A stretch of 64,000 nucleotides of DNA. Source: an uncultured Eubacteriales bacterium. GTDB taxonomy: Bacteria > Bacillota > Clostridia > Christensenellales > CAG-138. This document shows positions 3,912 to 63,711 of this stretch, piece by piece. The stretch is from positions 18,581-82,580 of the forward strand of contig ONNZ01000005.1 in NCBI GenBank assembly GCA_900319345.1. The letters are read 5' to 3'. The translations under genes were made by a program, and so were the position numbers. The notes below the pieces were generated by a model, which was not told the DNA's origin, ran no database searches, and saw only the letters and a list, made by a program, of their open reading frames with translations. Position 1 is the stretch's first letter, and every line of letters starts with the position of its first letter.

Positions 3912-5147
3912 TCAGTCCTGAGGCTTTGGTGCTCGTTTCCGATTCAGGTAGACGTCCAGCTTGTCCTTGATCTTCTCTGGGATCTCCCGCTTCACGGGGC
4001 AGCGGACGGCGTTGGCCATGCGTCCGGTAAAACCTGCGATGAACTCTATATCCGTCAGCACCTGCTGCGGGGAAACGATGGCTGGCGTATCGTACCGTTC
4101 ATGGATGGATCCGGCGGTGGGCGGTGCCAGCCGCGCAAAGGAAAGGCTGGGAACTCCCTTGTCCGCAAAGGGCGTGGAGTCGCTGGAATAGACGCCGCTA
4201 CGGGCGGCCACAGGGAACCCGAGCTCGTCCGCCGTATATTCGAGGAAGGAAACCAGGCGCTCCTCTGCGGAGCAGCAGGCGATGAATTTGCCCATGATGC
4301 TGCCGATCATGTCCAGGTTTATGTTCAACACCACCTTTTCCAGCTCCCCTTCATGGTCGGCGCAGTAGGCTTTGGAGCCCAAAAGGCCCAACTCTTCTCC
4401 GCCGCACCAGATGAACCGAAGGCCCCGCCGATGAGGCGCTTTCACGAACTGTTCCGCTACGCCCAGGATACCGATGGACCCGGTCATGTTGTCGTAGCTG
4501 CCGCAGGACAGGGGTGTGGAATCGTAGTGGGCTGTCAGTACCACCCACTCGTCGATCTCCCCGGGGAGTTCTCCGATCAGGTTATGGGCCTTTCCCTCAT
4601 ATGACTCCTGGTCGATCTCGATACAGGCGGACTTACTTCCCTTGGCCACGATGTCCATGGCGTCCTTCACGTTGATATTCACGCCCAGAAGAAGCTTTCC
4701 CAGGCTGGTGGAGGGCCGCAGCGTCTTTTGATCGATATCCCGATCGGGACAATTATACCGCCCCGTGAAGGTGATGAACCCCAGGGCGCCGTTCTTGAGC
4801 ATGTCCTGATAGGTCCACATCTTCAGCGGCTGATCCGTCAGCACGATGTGGTCCCTACACAGGGACAGAGATAGATCGTCCGTGCTCCGAAGGTAATAGA
4901 GCGGCGCCTCCACTTTCCCGCTGCCGCAGCCGATATAGGCCTTGCAGTGGTACTCCTTCCCGTCCACCGTAAGGGTAGCGGATCGGATGTTGGAACGCTC
5001 CAAGGGGAACGCTTCTACCCTTGTCTCCAAGCCAACCTTGCGGCATCTTTCCTGCAGGTATTGCAGGCATTTCATCTCTTCCGGGGAGGCCGCTGTATGG
5101 GGATACGCCGTATCCTTCAAAATCTGTTTCACGTCTCTGCTGTTCAT
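3912..5147 (-). CDS. M28 family aminopeptidase with PA-like domain
   Basis: AHYDS, YDNMTG, GEELGLLGS, NLDMIG, SSDS and SIHERYDT metal-binding motifs. Confidence 0.88.
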   Translation of the reverse strand: MNSRDVKQILKDTAYPHTAASPEEMKCLQYLQERCRKVGLETRVEAFPLERSNIRSATLTVDGKEYHCKAYIGCGSGKVEAPLYYLRSTDDLSLSLCRDHIVLTDQPLKMWTYQDMLKNGALGFITFTGRYNCPDRDIDQKTLRPSTSLGKLLLGVNINVKDAMDIVAKGSKSACIEIDQESYEGKAHNLIGELPGEIDEWVVLTAHYDSTPLSCGSYDNMTGSIGILGVAEQFVKAPHRRGLRFIWCGGEELGLLGSKAYCADHEGELEKVVLNINLDMIGSIMGKFIACCSAEERLVSFLEYTADELGFPVAARSGVYSSDSTPFADKGVPSLSFARLAPPTAGSIHERYDTPAIVSPQQVLTDIEFIAGFTGRMANAVRCPVKREIPEKIKDKLDVYLNRKRAPKPQD

Positions 5148-5229
5148 CAGGGTCACCTGCCTTTCTTATGAAACATGATACCATAGCAATACATATCTAA
5201 CAAGTGCAAATCATTTTCAAAAAAAGGAC

Positions 5230-5258
5230 TTGCAAATTGCAAAACGATGCTGTATAAT
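5230..5258 (+). promoter_or_regulatory. Sigma-A promoter of tRNA-Val
   Basis: TTGCAA-N17-TATAAT. Confidence 0.8.
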
Positions 5259-5271
5259 CTTGCTTGCGCGT

Positions 5272-5348
5272 GGGGATGTAGCTCAGCTGGTTAGAGCGCT
5301 GTGTTCACATCGCAGAGGTCTAGGGTTCGAGTCCCTACATCCCCACCA
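5272..5348 (+). tRNA. tRNA-Val(CAC)
   Basis: GGGGATG/CATCCCC acceptor stem, anticodon arm CTGTG-TTCACAT-CGCAG, GTTCGAGT T-loop, encoded CCA. Confidence 0.96.
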
Positions 5349-5542
5349 ATAAAAAACCACCTTTTCAGGTGGTTTTTTATTGGTGGGGATGTAGGGCTCG
5401 AACGGGTTCGGTAGTGAATGGAGCGCCAGTGGCGCTCCAGAGCCGAACCCCGACCAAGCCCGCAGGCGCGAATTCGAGTCCCTGAAGCTTCATCTACCAT
5501 TACACCTCCAAGCCCGCAGGCGCGAATTCGAGTCCCTACATC
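5349..5542. repeat. tRNA-associated composite palindromic element, copy A
   Basis: Inverted repeat 5325-5362/5367-5403; core hairpin 5404-5450; 30-bp direct repeats 5454-5483 and 5508-5537. Confidence 0.85.
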
Positions 5543-5552
5543 TTTTATATTT

Positions 5553-6677
5553 TCATTCAAACAGCTCCGCCGCTTTCTCCATATGCACCGCCGACTCGAT
5601 ATGCTGTGGGCAGATATCCAAACACTGTCCGCAGCCCACACAGGCGGACGCAAGCCCCTTCTCCCGGGTCCTAAACCCGTAGCTGCGCTTGGCGCTCTCC
5701 AGGGAACCGAAGCGAGCGTATTCGTTCAACAGATCCAGGATGGCCGGGATATCGATGTTCGCCGGGCAGCCCTCCACGCAGTATTTGCATCCCGTGCAGG
5801 GGATGGCCCCGGCCGCCCGCAGCATATCGGCAGCCTGTGTCAGCAAAGCCTGCTCCGCGTCCGATAGGGGGGTTATATGGCTGAACAGGGCCACGTTCTC
5901 CTCCAGCTGCTGGAAGGTGGACATACCGGAAAGAACCATGGCTACACCCGGCAACCCCGCTACGAACCGCAAAGCCCAGGAAGCTAAGGTCGCTTTAGGA
6001 TCAGCTTCCTTCAACAGCGGCGCGCACACCGCCTTTTCCGACGCAAGGCTACCGCCTCGGACAGGCTCCATGACGATGACGGGCTTGCCGTGTTTCTGCG
6101 CCACCTCGTAGCAGCGGCGGGACTGGACCTCCTGATCCTCCCAGTCCGCATAGTTGATCTGGAGCTGGACGAACTCCGCTTCCGGAAGGTCGGTCAACAT
6201 CCGGTCCAGCACCTCCGGCGAATCGTGGAAGGAGAACCCCAGCCGACGGATCCGTCCCCTCTCCTTCTCCTGGAGCAAGTACGGCCACACTTGCAGCTCC
6301 TTGACCTTCTCAAGGCGTTCCGCGCCCATGGCGTGTAGCAGATAAAAGTCGAAATAGCCGGCCCCGGTCCGTTCCAGCTGCTCCTCGAAGGTGGCGAGGG
6401 CATCCGGGGATTCCTTCAGCTTATAGACCGGCATCTTGTCGGCCAGCAAAAAGCTCTCCCGAGGATGGCGCTCCACCAGTACCTTCTTGACGGCGCGCTC
6501 GGAGAAACCGTTATGATAGGGATACGCCGTGTCGAAGTAGGTGAAGCCCTGCTGCAGAAAGTGATCGGCCATCTTGCATACCAGCTCGATATCGATGTCT
6601 TCGCCCTTGCCGTTCAGAACGGGCAGCCGCATCAATCCGAACCCCAGTTTTTTTGTATTTTCGGGAAGAAATGCCAT
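5553..6677 (-). CDS. Aldo/keto reductase with C-terminal 4Fe-4S dicluster
   Basis: LGFGLMRLP, YFDTAYPY, GFSFH, MEPVRGG; CTGCKYCVEGCP and CVGCGQCLDICP. Confidence 0.92.
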   Translation of the reverse strand: MAFLPENTKKLGFGLMRLPVLNGKGEDIDIELVCKMADHFLQQGFTYFDTAYPYHNGFSERAVKKVLVERHPRESFLLADKMPVYKLKESPDALATFEEQLERTGAGYFDFYLLHAMGAERLEKVKELQVWPYLLQEKERGRIRRLGFSFHDSPEVLDRMLTDLPEAEFVQLQINYADWEDQEVQSRRCYEVAQKHGKPVIVMEPVRGGSLASEKAVCAPLLKEADPKATLASWALRFVAGLPGVAMVLSGMSTFQQLEENVALFSHITPLSDAEQALLTQAADMLRAAGAIPCTGCKYCVEGCPANIDIPAILDLLNEYARFGSLESAKRSYGFRTREKGLASACVGCGQCLDICPQHIESAVHMEKAAELFE

Positions 6678-6803
6678 ATGATCGCCTCCGTTTTTGTTTA
6701 TATTGTACAAAAATAGCGTTTCACCGTCAAGAAAATATAAGATTGCACTTTCAAATACGATCGATCTGTGATACTATATGCCATCATGTGTTTCGAGGTC
6801 GCT

Positions 6804-40449: not shown

Positions 40450-40533
40450 TGGTGCGGTGGACGAGACTTGAACTCGTACGCGCGAAGCACACGCACCTCA
40501 AACGTGCCTGTCTGCCAATTCCAGCACCACCGC
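40450..40533 (-). tRNA. tRNA-Leu(GAG)
   Basis: GCGGTGG/CCACCGC acceptor, anticodon arm CACGT-TTGAGGT-GCGTG, long variable arm, GTTCAAGT, CCA. Confidence 0.95.
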
Positions 40534-62315: not shown

Positions 62316-62416
62316 GTGAATAAAAACCTCCCATTCAGATCAAACAAAGGTGTATCATAGCACGAAAAGAAATAAAGTCAAGGGTTTTAGGCCATTATTT
62401 CGTTCATGGAAAAGCA

Positions 62417-62445
62417 TTGACATTTGATAACCTCTTTGGTATACT
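62417..62445 (+). promoter_or_regulatory. Sigma-A promoter of the tRNA-Ser pair
   Basis: TTGACA-N17-TATACT with extended -10 TG. Confidence 0.85.
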
Positions 62446-62480
62446 TCCCTTCGAACGGAAGCGGGGGGCATCGAAAACAC

Positions 62481-62568
62481 GGAGATGTGTCCGAGTGGTC
62501 TAAGGAAGCGGTCTTGAAAACCGTCGGCATGCAAGTGCCCGTGGGTTCGAATCCTACCATCTCCGCCA
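62481..62568 (+). tRNA. tRNA-Ser(TGA)
   Basis: GGAGATG/CATCTCC, anticodon loop CTTGAAA, long variable arm, GTTCGAAT, GCCA. Confidence 0.95.
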
Positions 62569-62573
62569 TATAT

Positions 62574-62666
62574 GGAGAAATACCCAAGTGGCTATAAGGG
62601 GCTCCCCTGCTAAGGGAGTAGACTGGGATAACCGGTGCGTGGGTTCAAATCCCACTTTCTCCGCCA
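62574..62666 (+). tRNA. tRNA-Ser(GCT)
   Basis: GGAGAAA/TTTCTCC, CTCCC-CTGCTAA-GGGAG, long variable arm, GTTCAAAT, GCCA. Confidence 0.95.
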
Positions 62667-62866
62667 AGAAATAAAGAGGGCATTTGCTCTCTTTATTTCT
62701 TATTATGAGGAAACGTGGGATTTGAACGGGTTCGGTAGTGAATGGATTGCCAGTGGCGATCCAGAGCCGTGCCCATGGCCTGCGCCGCCGCGCAGGTCAA
62801 ATCCCATTCCAGCTCACCTGCAAGCATTTGGGGCCGTTGCCTGCGCCGCAGCGCAGGTCAAATCCC
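62667..62866. repeat. tRNA-associated composite palindromic element, copy B
   Basis: Hairpin 62666-62701; anti-T-arm 62715-62727; core 62728-62774; 28-bp direct repeats 62778-62805 and 62839-62866. Confidence 0.85.
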
Positions 62867-62874
62867 TTTTTTCA

Positions 62875-63711
62875 TCAGTATTCATCCACGCAGAAGCAGG
62901 GCTTCCTGGAGGCCTCCATGGCCCGCCAGATCTCCTCCGAAGCCAGCATGACGTTTTGGGGGCCCACCTCCCCCGGGACGTCGGCGTCGGGCGGGAGCTT
63001 GGCGGACACAGGCCGTTCCCTGGCGATGCGGCGCAGCTCCTGGAGCAGGGGGCCGTAGCCCGTCAGAGACAGGACCTCCTCCCCGTAGACCTCCTCCTTC
63101 GCAAAATAGATGCAGTAGCCCACGGTCTTCCCCGCCTCCCGGAACAGAAACCCCCTGGCGTCGTCCGCGGCGTAGTCCGCCATCTTCAGGCGGAACCCGT
63201 CCCGATCCCGGTGCACGAAGCCTGTATAGCGGTCCGCCATGGCGGCATAGACGCGAAAAGCCTCCCCCTCTTCGAAGGGGACGATCTCCCCCTGCAGGAA
63301 TTCTCCCTCCCCCTGCCAATACTTCGTGAAGGTGCTGGGGCGAAAGCCCAGGTGGGCATAGGCCCCCTGGCGCTGGGGATGGTTGAACAGGGCGCGAACG
63401 CCTCGACGTTCCGCCTCCCCCTGTAAAAAGCGCATGGCGTCGTACATATGGCCTCTGCCACGTTCCTCCGGGATCGTGGCCACGCCGGAGGTCATGAGGG
63501 CCGTAAAGGAGCCGTCCCCCAGGGACAGGTCCATTGGAGTGCCATGGATGGCCGAGATCAGTTTGTTCCCGTCAAAAACGCCGACGGACCATGCCGGTAA
63601 GTACCGGTTTTCGAAAAACCAGTCCACGAAGGCGGGCGGATCGTCGAAGGCGGTGTCCCATAGGGCCCTGGCCTGGAACAAGTCCGACCGAGTGAGCAAT
63701 CGGATCGTCAT
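62875..63711 (-). CDS. GNAT acetyltransferase (Eis-like N-terminal region)
   Basis: LWDTAF, SGVATIPEERGRGHM, YAHLGF. Confidence 0.85.
   Translation of the reverse strand: MTIRLLTRSDLFQARALWDTAFDDPPAFVDWFFENRYLPAWSVGVFDGNKLISAIHGTPMDLSLGDGSFTALMTSGVATIPEERGRGHMYDAMRFLQGEAERRGVRALFNHPQRQGAYAHLGFRPSTFTKYWQGEGEFLQGEIVPFEEGEAFRVYAAMADRYTGFVHRDRDGFRLKMADYAADDARGFLFREAGKTVGYCIYFAKEEVYGEEVLSLTGYGPLLQELRRIARERPVSAKLPPDADVPGEVGPQNVMLASEEIWRAMEASRKPCFCVDEY

What the first reader, a model, noticed from the sequence alone, without database searches (positions are those of the whole stretch)
5325..5542. tRNA-mirroring element: conserved hairpin core flanked by copies of the host tRNA's own T-arm (copy A, tRNA-Val)
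Seen: the hairpin after tRNA-Val is not a plain terminator. Its arms (5325-5362 and 5367-5403; 38/37 nt, one bulge) include the tRNA's T-loop, T-stem, acceptor strand and CCA. Right after the anti-T-loop GAAC begins a 47-nt nested hairpin (5404-5450, GGGTTCGGTAGTGAATGGAGCGCC-AGT-GGCGCTCCAGAGCCGAACCC). Two exact 30-bp direct repeats follow (5454-5483, 5508-5537), each ending in TTCGAGTCCCT; the second extends to TTCGAGTCCCTACATC, identical to tRNA positions 5326-5341. The layout is revcomp(X)-core-X-X, where X is tRNA sequence. The same layout and core recur at tRNA-Ser(GCT) 57 kb away with X changed to match that tRNA. Known: tRNA T-loops and 3' ends are classic tyrosine-integrase att sites, but those leave a direct repeat, not an inverted one; REP/REPIN elements moved by HUH (RAYT) transposases are palindromic. 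Inference: a non-autonomous element that targets the T-loop and copies its target in inverted form, or a structured RNA that switches between pairing with the pre-tRNA and with the downstream X copies. No mobilising enzyme is in the window, and I cannot exclude that this is a described Clostridiales repeat or Rfam motif.
Basis: partly seen in the sequence, partly recalled or inferred. Interest (0 to 1): 0.88.

Follow-up and report, generated by a model that had tools for sequence, protein, structure and literature searches.

The report
tRNA-anchored miniature DNA cassettes
Just behind many tRNA genes and the tmRNA gene of this rumen bacterium and its relatives sits a gene-less unit of about 150 bases, built from copies of that tRNA's own 3' end around a conserved double hairpin, which behaves like a tiny mobile cassette of a kind not yet catalogued.

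Summary
All coordinates check, and an independent DNA run tiles the palindrome. The core plus a second small hairpin is a repeat family: 16 hits in this 2.14-Mb genome, every one with readable upstream sequence behind a tRNA, a tRNA fragment or the tmRNA. It occurs in 15 of 16 other genomes of the genus and in many rumen and gut Clostridia MAGs. Both stems covary strongly (15 of 21 pairs), but G.T and A.C mismatches are equally rare, which points to folded DNA rather than RNA.

Both arms are anchored at the T-loop. The inverted arm ends at tRNA position 52-54 in 53 of 53 units; the direct arm starts at 53-57 in 46 of 50. Both match the adjacent tRNA far better than other tRNAs. Units form tandem arrays and turn over between close genomes. 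Where the direct copy runs through CCA it is usually followed by a second, different terminator.

My best reading (0.4) is a gene-less cassette that integrates in the T-loop-to-3'-end block, replacing the tRNA end and displacing the old one. No enzyme was found: no Y1, RT or IS110 genes. There is no Rfam match, and four literature searches found no description.

The parts
5272..5348 (+). tRNA-Val(cac). Its last 24 nt (5325-5348: G53, T-loop, T-stem 3' strand, acceptor 3' strand, CCA) are block X.
   Evidence: ARAGORN; Rfam RF00005 at 68.6 bits.
5349..5380 (.). Two-way terminator palindrome: A-tract, 7-bp stem, 4-nt loop at 5363-5366, stem, T-tract. It is the centre of the long palindrome X-terminator-Xrc.
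   Evidence: Terminators of this style are common in the genome: 113 CCACC..GGTGG sites.
5381..5403 (+). Xrc: inverted copy of tRNA positions 76 to 53, 23 nt with one base missing in the T-loop. It starts with TGG, the complement of CCA, and ends with GAAC.
   Evidence: Across the family the inner end lies at tRNA position 52-54 in 53 of 53 units.
5404..5450 (+). Core module M: outer stem P1 (8 bp), conserved internal loop TAGTGAA / GAG, inner stem P2 (9 bp), conserved apical CAGTG.
   Evidence: (13 of 17 P1/P2 pairs have changes on both sides).
5451..5472 (+). hp2: small conserved hairpin (GCC-CGCA-GGC flanked by G/A positions). The tRNA-Ser copies carry a longer 7-bp version.
   Evidence: GCC/GGC changes to GGC/GCC in 4 of 15 copies.
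5473..5483 (+). X' of unit 1: direct copy of tRNA positions 54-64 (T-loop plus part of the T-stem 3' strand), cut short.
5484..5507 (+). 24-nt spacer of unknown origin between the two hp2-X' repeats.
5508..5542 (+). Remnant of an older unit: the 3' part of hp2 (5508-5526) plus X' (5527-5542, an exact copy of tRNA 5326-5341).
   Evidence: The orthologous locus in G008 has only this hp2-X' form, running to the discriminator base.
5553..6710 (-). Convergent ORF (385 aa) that ends 10 nt after the element. It is a flank, not part of the element.
   Evidence: it is syntenic in G008 and G003.
62574..62666 (+). tRNA-Ser(gct), the host of copy B.
62667..62700 (.). Terminator palindrome of copy B.
62701..62727 (+). 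Xrc of copy B. The T-stem and T-loop part is exact; the acceptor part is partly decayed.
62728..62796 (+). Core M (62728-62774) and the long Ser-type hp2 (62775-62796) of copy B.
62797..62866 (+). X' of copy B (62797-62806), a spacer, and a second hp2-X' remnant (62839-62866).

Best explanation
The unit is a gene-less, non-autonomous DNA cassette of about 150 nt. Written as a circle it reads: X (tRNA T-loop to CCA), a terminator with or without cargo, Xrc, core hairpin M, hp2. It sits integrated in the T-loop-to-3'-end block of a tRNA or tmRNA gene. The cassette supplies the working 3' end of the tRNA and a terminator. The previous 3' end is pushed downstream and survives as X'. Further integrations and recombination between the X repeats build tandem arrays, reorder them and shrink them. 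The conserved M-hp2 module, closed by pairing of Xrc with X, is proposed to be the recombination site, read as folded DNA. In a single strand it rebuilds a double-stranded copy of the tRNA gene's 3' end next to a conserved three-way junction.

Shown: the anatomy, the anchoring at the T-loop, the match of the arms to the adjacent tRNA, the arrays, the turnover between close genomes, and the DNA-like pattern of covariation.

Inferred: integration by site-specific recombination, the single-strand folding, and the enzyme. No enzyme was identified; it could be a resident Xer-type recombinase or one acting in trans.
For: 1. Family and placement. There are 16 nhmmer hits (E < 1e-9) in the own genome. 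Eleven have a tRNA or tmRNA 51-98 nt upstream on the same strand, one follows a tRNA 3' fragment, and four lie at contig starts. In 81 further loci, 37 of 37 copies near a tRNA lie downstream on the same strand and none is inverted.

2. Arms match the host. The inverted arm scores 12 or more against the adjacent tRNA in 56 of 65 units, against 62 of 650 pairings with other tRNAs. For X' the figures are 49 of 58 against 49 of 580. This covers 18 tRNA anticodon types (15 amino acids) plus tmRNA.

3. Anchoring. The Xrc inner end lies at position 52-54 in 53 of 53 units. X' starts at 53-57 in 46 of 50. The outer ends vary.

4. Displaced-end pattern. In 13 loci X' runs through CCA. In 9 it is followed by a terminator different from the first one; 3 of these are single-module loci and 6 are arrays. 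In 1 the terminator is the same and in 2 none is obvious.

5. A clean insertion in another genus: an 80-nt insert flanked by a perfect 61-nt direct repeat that begins at T-loop C56 of tRNA-Tyr.

6. Arrays and cargo. The tmRNA locus of G008 has 3 units, one preceded by about 400 bp of AT-rich cargo with a small ORF. G003 holds two of these units in the other order. G010 has 5 units behind tRNA-Ser.

7. Turnover. G008 and G003 are 83-100% identical in 100-column bins of the flanks (most bins 86% or more), but 72 of 100 and 32 of 52 in the element.

8. Structure. 95.5% of cells are paired, 15 of 21 pairs change on both sides, and 0 of 500 shuffles reach this. G.T against A.C is 25 against 26 in P1 and 13 against 13 in P2, and P2 is 97.5% Watson-Crick.

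9. tmRNA is a target alongside tRNAs, as for classical integrases (that comparison is recalled).
Against: No recombinase is tied to the element. The own genome (90% complete) has only 3 PF00589 genes, and G002, which has no element, also has 3. No gene family recurs next to the module in 81 loci. One enzyme would have to serve 18 or more different X blocks, or each X would need its own.

Most single units have X' cut short at position 64-75 with no old terminator behind it. The model therefore needs later deletions that spare X'.

In some arrays the two terminators and both Xrc copies are nearly identical while M differs (G000 C42, G008 tRNA-Trp). That fits duplication followed by gene conversion as well as it fits integration.

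In L103, X' carries the T-stem variant of another species' tRNA-Trp, not that of the adjacent gene. A simple displaced-end model does not predict this.

No circular or excised form, and no filled and empty pair with conserved flanks, was seen.

Copies of the module away from tRNAs (type B) lack complementary arms.
Confidence: 0.4

Rival explanations
1. There is no dedicated enzyme. M is a REP-like hairpin repeat, and the tRNA-derived arms and long duplications arise from replication template switching at hairpins (fold-back at the terminator and at M), followed by unequal crossing-over between the X repeats and gene conversion between M copies.
For: The three alternating copies X, Xrc and X' are joined at two hairpins. 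The arms are anchored at the module and have variable outer ends. There is a perfect 61-nt duplication running from the T-loop to just past the terminator. Some arrays have near-identical terminators and Xrc copies but different M. The same M variant occurs at different tRNAs in different genomes. No mobilising gene was found. G.T and A.C mismatches are symmetric.
Against: This does not explain how M first reached 18 or more different tRNAs, always in one orientation (53 of 53). It does not explain why the junction is so exact at tRNA position 52-54. It does not explain the different terminators behind X'-CCA in 9 of 13 loci, or why loop nucleotides of M are conserved across several families of Clostridia.
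Confidence: 0.2
2. The units are the last remains of classical tRNA-integrating islands or prophages, that is CIME-like elements with att sites and no genes. M-hp2 would be a conserved arm of attP, and integrases of incoming phages or ICEs would mobilise the units in trans.
For: Direct repeats of the T-loop-to-3'-end block flank each unit. tmRNA is also a target. There is tandem accretion and one unit carries cargo. The definition of a CIME and of accretion comes from passages of PMC5704250. Two loci have longer tRNA 3' fragments in front of the unit, as expected after an island has integrated upstream.
Against: The module is nearly absent from viral and plasmid data: 1 viral contig among 2.9 million by pattern search, and no blastn match in 50,697 phage or 72,556 plasmid records. 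No copy is linked to an integrase. Covarying stems are not expected for double-stranded arm sites. Decay of unrelated islands at 18 or more tRNAs would not leave one shared 70-nt module.
Confidence: 0.12
3. It is a structured RNA. It would be part of a read-through tRNA trailer or of the 3' UTR of the convergent gene, acting in processing, stability or termination by pairing alternately with the tRNA 3' half and the downstream X copy.
For: The orientation relative to the tRNA is fixed. Covariation is strong and loops are conserved. In one RNA library, contigs of a relative cover 5468-5790; these are contigs only, with no strand, and DNA carry-over is not excluded.
Against: G.T pairs are no commoner than A.C (25 against 26, and 13 against 13), and the stems are almost purely Watson-Crick. 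The unit lies behind an intrinsic terminator. The acceptor part of Xrc is free to decay while X' is kept, which breaks the proposed alternative pairing. Turnover, arrays and cargo are the behaviour of DNA elements. No Rfam family matches.
Confidence: 0.12
4. It is a REP/REPIN family moved by a RAYT (Y1 HUH) transposase.
For: The repeats are palindromic and extragenic. A GTAG sits in the conserved internal loop of M. In other Clostridia the module lies among GTAG-plus-stem REP-like hairpins. That RAYT recognises GTAG is recalled, not from a call.
Against: PF01797 has 0 hits in the own genome and is found in 2 of 16 other genomes of the genus, while the element is in 15 of 16. In this genome no copy lies away from a tRNA or tmRNA end.
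Confidence: 0.06

Closest known systems
Integrative elements at tRNA/tmRNA 3' ends and their gene-less derivatives (CIMEs)
   Same: A direct repeat of the tRNA block from the T-loop to the 3' end flanks the insert. The tRNA stays intact and the old end is displaced. Units accrete in tandem. tmRNA is a target. There is no recombinase inside, as in a CIME (PMC5704250, passages read).
   Different: The unit is only about 150 nt. It carries an inverted copy of the att block and a conserved, covarying double hairpin. One module serves 18 or more different tRNAs. No parent element with an integrase was found.
Integron gene cassettes and attC sites
   Same: The site is conserved in structure rather than sequence. 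Its outer arms end in ..AAC and begin with GTT.. There are tandem arrays with one fixed orientation next to a fixed chromosomal site, and the cassettes are sometimes empty. The attC consensus and the folded-strand mechanism are recalled, not tested here.
   Different: The anchor is a tRNA T-loop, not attI. The arms are 11-24 nt of host tRNA sequence rather than 7-nt R boxes. No IntI-like gene or Pc platform was seen, and most units carry no ORF.
Xer-dependent integrating elements that fold single-stranded DNA into a target mimic (CTX-phi type; recalled)
   Same: The integrated layout is partial site, loop, complete inverted site, cargo, partial site. This is what integration of a folded hairpin site would leave.
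   Different: No similarity to dif was tested, there is no phage genome, and use of Xer is pure inference.
REP / BIME / REPIN extragenic palindromes
   Same: They are short, GC-rich, extragenic, multi-copy hairpins at gene ends. In other Clostridia the module is part of mosaic repeat clusters.
   Different: In this genus they are bound strictly to tRNA/tmRNA ends, with host-derived arms. No RAYT is present.
MITEs
   Same: They are small and non-autonomous, with inverted arms and flanking direct repeats.
   Different: The arms change with the target. The direct repeat is 10-61 nt and variable, not a fixed short target-site duplication. The orientation is fixed, and no parent IS was found.

Membership tests
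Rfam RNA families (release 15) | Match to a covariance model at the gathering score | tested here: not met
   Only tRNA matches in the window. No family near its gathering score in 5200-5650 at E up to 10. In 6 related loci only tmRNA, tRNA and one Gut-1 hit, which lies outside the module.
REP/REPIN-RAYT | A Y1 (RAYT) transposase gene in genomes that carry the repeats | tested here: not met
   PF01797 has 0 hits in the own genome (90% complete) and occurs in 2 of 16 other genomes of the genus, against the element in 15 of 16.
REP/REPIN-RAYT | Copies dispersed in intergenic regions in both orientations, often as inverted pairs | tested here: not met
   Every own-genome copy with readable upstream sequence follows a tRNA or tmRNA end, and all lie on the host's strand.
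REP/REPIN-RAYT | Conserved GTAG next to the hairpin (recalled feature) | tested here: inconclusive
   TAGTGAA is the internal-loop sequence in 135 of 153 cores. It lies inside P1, not at the foot of a simple hairpin.
MITE | Terminal inverted repeats that are constant for the family, and a short target-site duplication of fixed length | tested here: not met
   The arms differ with each tRNA. The direct repeat is 10-26 nt in most units and 61 or 107 nt in two.
MITE | A related autonomous IS with the same ends | tested here: not met
   No recurrent neighbouring gene in 81 loci. No PF01797, PF01548 or PF00078 in the own genome.
Integron cassette / attC | An imperfect palindrome conserved in structure, variable in sequence | tested here: met
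   15 of 21 pairs change on both sides and 95.5% of cells are paired. 153 distinct cores; P2 is 97.5% Watson-Crick.
Integron cassette / attC | R'' / R' boxes RYYYAAC / GTTRRRY (consensus recalled) | tested here: not met
   The arms end in ..TTCGAAC and begin with GTTCGAA.. or variants. Position 4 does not fit the recalled consensus.
Integron cassette / attC | An intI gene with attI and a promoter next to the array | tested here: not met
   The arrays abut tRNA/tmRNA genes. The own genome has only 3 PF00589 genes, none next to a module. IntI-specific features were not examined.
tRNA-targeting integrative element (tyrosine-integrase att logic) | The insert is flanked by direct repeats of the tRNA segment from a loop to the 3' end, and the tRNA is left intact | tested here: met
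tRNA-targeting integrative element (tyrosine-integrase att logic) | An integrase gene inside the element | tested here: not met
   The units are about 150 nt with no ORF; one carries about 400 bp of cargo with a small ORF only.
CIME (cis-mobilizable element) | attL and attR kept, integration and transfer genes lost (PMC5704250) | tested here: met
   X and X' flank each unit and no genes lie inside.
CIME (cis-mobilizable element) | Descent from a decayed ICE or IME | not testable with these tools
   No parent element was found. The module is nearly absent from the viral, phage and plasmid collections.
Xer-dependent folded single-strand integration (CTX-phi type) | A dif-like site formed by the folded strand, and dependence on XerC/D | not tested
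   No dif comparison was made. Xer-like genes are present in genomes both with and without the element.
Intrinsic terminator | A GC-rich hairpin followed by a T-run directly after the gene | tested here: met
   This holds for 5349-5380 only. 60 of 74 tRNA-linked units have such a site upstream. The other 160 nt of the element are not terminator.

The most novel reading that the evidence does not exclude
This is an integron-like system anchored on tRNA genes. The roughly 150-nt units would be circles of single-stranded DNA that fold into an almost fully paired rod. The Xrc:X duplex of that rod mimics the double-stranded 3' end of one particular tRNA gene, and the conserved M-hp2 junction recruits a structure-specific host recombinase. 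The inverted arm would thus act as a built-in DNA guide that sets which tRNA is targeted. The cassette replaces the tRNA's 3' end without harming it. Arrays would grow from the tRNA side and can carry cargo.
Probability: 0.2. Interest if true: 0.9.

Novelty: new variant of a known kind. Interest (0 to 1): 0.75.

Why it matters
tRNA and tmRNA 3' ends are the classic landing sites of phages and genomic islands, but always for gene-carrying elements that bring their own integrase. Here roughly half or more of the tRNA transcription-unit ends of a small genome (13-17 of about 27) carry 150-nt gene-less units. These units share one structured module yet are tailored to at least 18 different tRNAs and to tmRNA.

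If they integrate by recombination of a folded strand, this would be a second natural system besides integrons in which DNA structure and a built-in copy of the target define the site. It would also be a possible source of compact, programmable integration sites.

Even on the more modest readings, the element explains why assemblies of these rumen and gut Clostridia break at tRNA genes. It also provides a fast-evolving marker for strain typing, and it is a sizeable repeat family that is missing from Rfam.

Tried and rejected
RAYT as mobiliser: PF01797 is absent from the own genome and rare in the genus.

Retro-element or bridge-RNA routes: there is no RVT_1 and no IS110 transposase in the own genome, which is 90% complete, so absence is not proven.

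Tyrosine-recombinase profiling: the counts are 3, 7, 4, 3 and 7 genes in G000, G008, G003, G002 and G016. No gene set separates carriers from G002.

Serine recombinases: there are 4 in the own genome, none beside a module.

Guilt by association: clustering ORFs of 90 aa or more from 81 loci gave no recurrent recombinase. The largest cluster, in 8 loci, looks like an ABC-type exporter judged from its first residues only.

Phage or plasmid origin: there were no blastn matches. The single viral contig with the motif (L055) had no informative Pfam hit in 9 ORFs.

Expression: all four runs laid were contigs. RNA-library contigs of a relative cover 5468-5790 in X16, and small tRNA or gene pieces in X15 and X17. 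They show neither strand, nor ends, nor that the module is transcribed. The uncovered part, 5351-5467 in the RNA runs, is not evidence of absence.

Filled against empty orthologous sites: G002 and four genomes of other genera have tRNA-Val or tmRNA without the element, but also without conserved downstream synteny. The same holds for tRNA-Pro(cgg) in G000 against G003. tRNA-Leu(gag) is empty in all three genomes looked at. No clean pair was obtained.

A terminator carried by the element: the CCACC..GGTGG style is genome-wide, with 113 sites, so the style alone says nothing.

An invertible switch: 0 of 37 plus 11 copies have the module inverted relative to the tRNA.

A foreign left arm in the G021 insertion: its arm matches no other place in that genome within 3 mismatches. 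On inspection it is a partial match to tRNA-Tyr, so no donor can be named.

M always inserting into hairpin loops, or always following terminators: the type B copies show neither complementary flanks above control (14 of 47 against 17 of 470 at score 10 or more, and most high scorers are in fact tRNA-type) nor upstream terminators (0 of 14).

Literature: the searches found no paper describing such an element in their listings. In PMC8040213 I read only the passages found by term search, and none concerns it. One search was run only to find the CIME definition.

Full report
**The sequence.** The window holds tRNA-Val(cac) at 5272-5348. Behind it lie the following parts:
- a two-way terminator palindrome (5349-5380);
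- an inverted copy of the tRNA's last 23 nt (Xrc, 5381-5403);
- a 47-nt nested hairpin (M, 5404-5450);
- a small hairpin region (hp2, 5451-5472);
- a direct copy of the T-loop and part of the T-stem (X', 5473-5483);
- a 24-nt spacer;
- a second half-hp2 with a 16-nt X' (5508-5542).

As single-stranded DNA the stretch 5320-5545 folds at -75.7 kcal/mol with z = -14.1. A second copy behind tRNA-Ser(gct), at 62667-62866, has the same plan with the arms changed to that tRNA. A DNA run from a different study tiles 4900-6100 with contig pieces that carry no differences, including pieces across the palindrome centre and across both direct repeats.

**A repeat family bound to tRNA ends.** A profile of M plus hp2 finds 16 copies (E < 1e-9) in the 2.14-Mb, 68-contig genome.
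- Eleven copies have a tRNA or the tmRNA 51-98 nt upstream on the same strand.
- One follows a 3' fragment of a tRNA.
- Four lie at contig starts.
- Two of those four overlap contig ends that hold the matching tRNA: C42 with C32, and C10 with C67. For C6 with C53, and for C34 with C33, the join is only inferred from matching arms.

Of about 27 terminal tRNA/tmRNA ends, 13 carry the canonical module, one more is split over a contig break, and three carry degenerate variants. No Rfam family matches.

**Structure of the module.** In an alignment of 15 own-genome copies, 95.5% of cells in the proposed pairs are standard pairs. Fifteen of 21 pairs show changes on both sides, and 0 of 500 shuffles reach the observed values. 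Sliding the partners by one to three columns drops pairing to 31-50%. In 153 distinct cores from all loci the internal loop is TAGTGAA in 135, the opposite strand is GAG in 148, and the apical CAGTG occurs in 126. G.T and A.C mismatches are equally rare: 25 against 26 in P1 and 13 against 13 in P2, and P2 is 97.5% Watson-Crick. An RNA under selection usually tolerates G.U far better than A.C. I therefore read the symmetry as a sign that the structure matters in DNA, although it does not exclude RNA.

**Distribution.** A covariance model finds the module in 15 of 16 other genomes of the genus, with 2-20 matches each. The exception is G002, which is 95% complete and the most divergent. The model also finds it in 1 of 8 other genera of the family and in 0 of 16 other families of the order, with one genome per family. 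All are in uncultured MAGs titled Clostridia, Clostridiales/Eubacteriales, Oscillospiraceae, Acutalibacteraceae, Christensenellales or similar, mostly from the rumen or gut of ruminants.

In the 81 loci returned there are 90 hits. Thirty-seven have a tRNA or tmRNA upstream on the same strand (31 loci from 26 assemblies, counted by hand from accession prefixes), 8 lie at a locus edge and 45 have none. None of the 37 is inverted. Some of the 45 still have tRNA-type arms. The rest form a second subfamily, type B, with a constant 5' hairpin, no complementary arms and no upstream terminator. The module is nearly absent from viral contigs (1 hit) and absent from the phage and plasmid collections.

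**The arms.** I examined 65 first units, covering 18 tRNA anticodon types (15 amino acids) plus tmRNA.
- The inverted arm matches the adjacent tRNA at score 12 or more in 56 of 65, against 62 of 650 pairings with other tRNAs.
- The direct arm does so in 49 of 58, against 49 of 580.

Both arms are anchored at the module.
- Xrc ends at tRNA position 52-54 in 53 of 53 units. Its outer end ranges from 63 to 76, and 23 of 53 stop at the end of the T-stem.
- X' begins at 53-57 in 46 of 50 units. It reaches position 70 or beyond in 40 of 50, and position 76 in 15.

The distance from X to X' is 136-162 nt in nearly all units, and the repeat is usually perfect. The acceptor part of Xrc is often replaced by unrelated AT-rich sequence, while X' in the same unit is intact.

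**Behaviour.**
- Turnover: at the orthologous tRNA-Val locus, G008 and G003 are 83-100% identical in 100-column bins of the flanks (most bins 86% or more), including 100 of 100 across the tRNA and most of the terminator. They are only 72 of 100 and 32 of 52 identical across the element, with all stem changes compensated. The more distant G000 shares its module with G008.
- tRNA-Trp: G008 has two units. The proximal one resembles the single unit of G003 and the distal one resembles that of G000.
- tmRNA: G008 has three units with different terminators. The third is preceded by about 400 bp of AT-rich cargo with a small ORF. G003 has two of these units in the opposite order, and the terminator of G000's single unit resembles that of G008's second unit.
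- tRNA-Ser(gct): G010 has five units with a 113-nt period.
- In another genus (G021), inside a tRNA operon, an 80-nt insert is flanked by a perfect 61-nt direct repeat. The repeat runs from C56 of the tRNA-Tyr T-loop through CCA and the terminator.
- In 13 distinct loci X' runs through CCA. It is followed by a terminator different from the first in nine (three single-module loci and six arrays), by the same terminator in one recent tandem duplication, and by none obvious in two.

**What I think it is.** These facts fit the logic of integration into tRNA genes. The inserted DNA brings a replacement for the tRNA segment from the T-loop to the 3' end, and the old segment remains behind the insert as a direct repeat. 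Here the insert is a gene-less cassette: X, a terminator with or without cargo, Xrc, M and hp2.

What sets it apart is the internal inverted copy of the att block and the conserved three-way junction. In a single strand, Xrc pairs with X, and M and hp2 stick out. This rebuilds a duplex copy of the target next to a conserved structure. From memory, it resembles the way integron attC sites and the CTX-phi attachment site work, but I did not test that.

I put 0.4 on this cassette reading. The weak points are these:
- no enzyme was found;
- X' is truncated in most single units;
- some arrays have near-identical terminators and Xrc copies but different modules;
- one locus has an X' that follows another species' tRNA variant;
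- no excision product and no clean filled and empty pair was seen.

**Rivals.** A purely replicative origin (fold-back template switching at the terminator and at M, then unequal crossing-over and gene conversion) explains the alternating X, Xrc, X' layout, the variable outer ends and the 61-nt duplication. It does not explain the spread to many tRNAs in one orientation or the differing terminators; I give it 0.2. Decayed classical islands, that is CIMEs (PMC5704250, passages read), get 0.12. A structured RNA gets 0.12 and REP/RAYT gets 0.06.

**Known or new.** Four full-text searches gave no description of such an element in their listings. Rfam 15 has no model for it. I cannot exclude that it appears in a supplementary table of candidate motifs, because supplements were closed. 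I rate it a new variant of known kinds (att-flanked non-autonomous elements, structured DNA repeats), with a real chance of being more than that.

Noticed in passing
window 62385-62880; L246 (G010), L244 (G006), L243 and contig C59 of G016: The whole tRNA-Ser(tga)-tRNA-Ser(gct) transcription unit, with its promoter and element array, lies inverted between the same two flanking genes in G010, G006 and probably G016, compared with G000. The breakpoints lie just outside the promoter and just after the last X'.
   Followed up: partly
G000 C18:10290-10490 (L003); G008 locus L185: Two units are preceded not by a whole tRNA but by a longer 3' fragment of one (variable loop to CCA) that ARAGORN does not call. 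This is what an island integrated further upstream in the same tRNA would leave. No intact partner tRNA for the C18 fragment is in the assembly.
   Followed up: partly
G000 C20:71549-71680, C33:46240-46366, C42:150-230; L053 (G008 tmRNA, unit 2); L197 (G003 tRNA-Pro): There is a variant module in which the conserved internal loops are replaced by A and T runs, so that it looks like a terminator hairpin inside the outer stem. In the arrays it is usually the distal unit, and it may be a decayed or alternative form.
   Followed up: partly
L059, L066, L068, L075, L084, L105, L121, L133 and others: In other Clostridia MAGs the module has a constant 5' hairpin and sits in mosaics of further repeated hairpins and GTAG-type REP-like palindromes, sometimes in tandem with a 225-nt period. 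This type B subfamily is not linked to tRNAs.
   Followed up: partly
L084:4657-4727 (-): A Gut-1 RNA motif (RF01706, 59.9 bits) lies about 110 nt from a type B module. Gut-1 may belong to the same mosaic repeat clusters.
   Followed up: no
G000 C31:12876-12901 (between tRNA-Tyr and tRNA-Leu(cag)): The first 17 nt of tRNA-Leu(cag) are duplicated directly in front of the gene.
   Followed up: no
window 40450-40533 and neighbours; G003 contig C3, G008 contig C3: The gene to the left of tRNA-Leu(gag) in G000 lies next to the tRNA-Ala(cgc) element array in G003 and G008. A synteny break therefore coincides with tRNA and element ends.
   Followed up: no
G000 contig ends C32/C42, C67/C10, C53/C6, C33/C34: At least four contig breaks of this assembly fall inside the element, which suggests the repeat family is a cause of fragmentation at tRNA loci.
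   Followed up: partly
G000 C17:513-1154 with tRNA-Arg(cct) at 1540-1616; C30:692-1132 with tRNA-Met at 2115-2191: A tyrosine recombinase gene and a large serine recombinase gene each lie next to a tRNA that carries no element.
   Followed up: no
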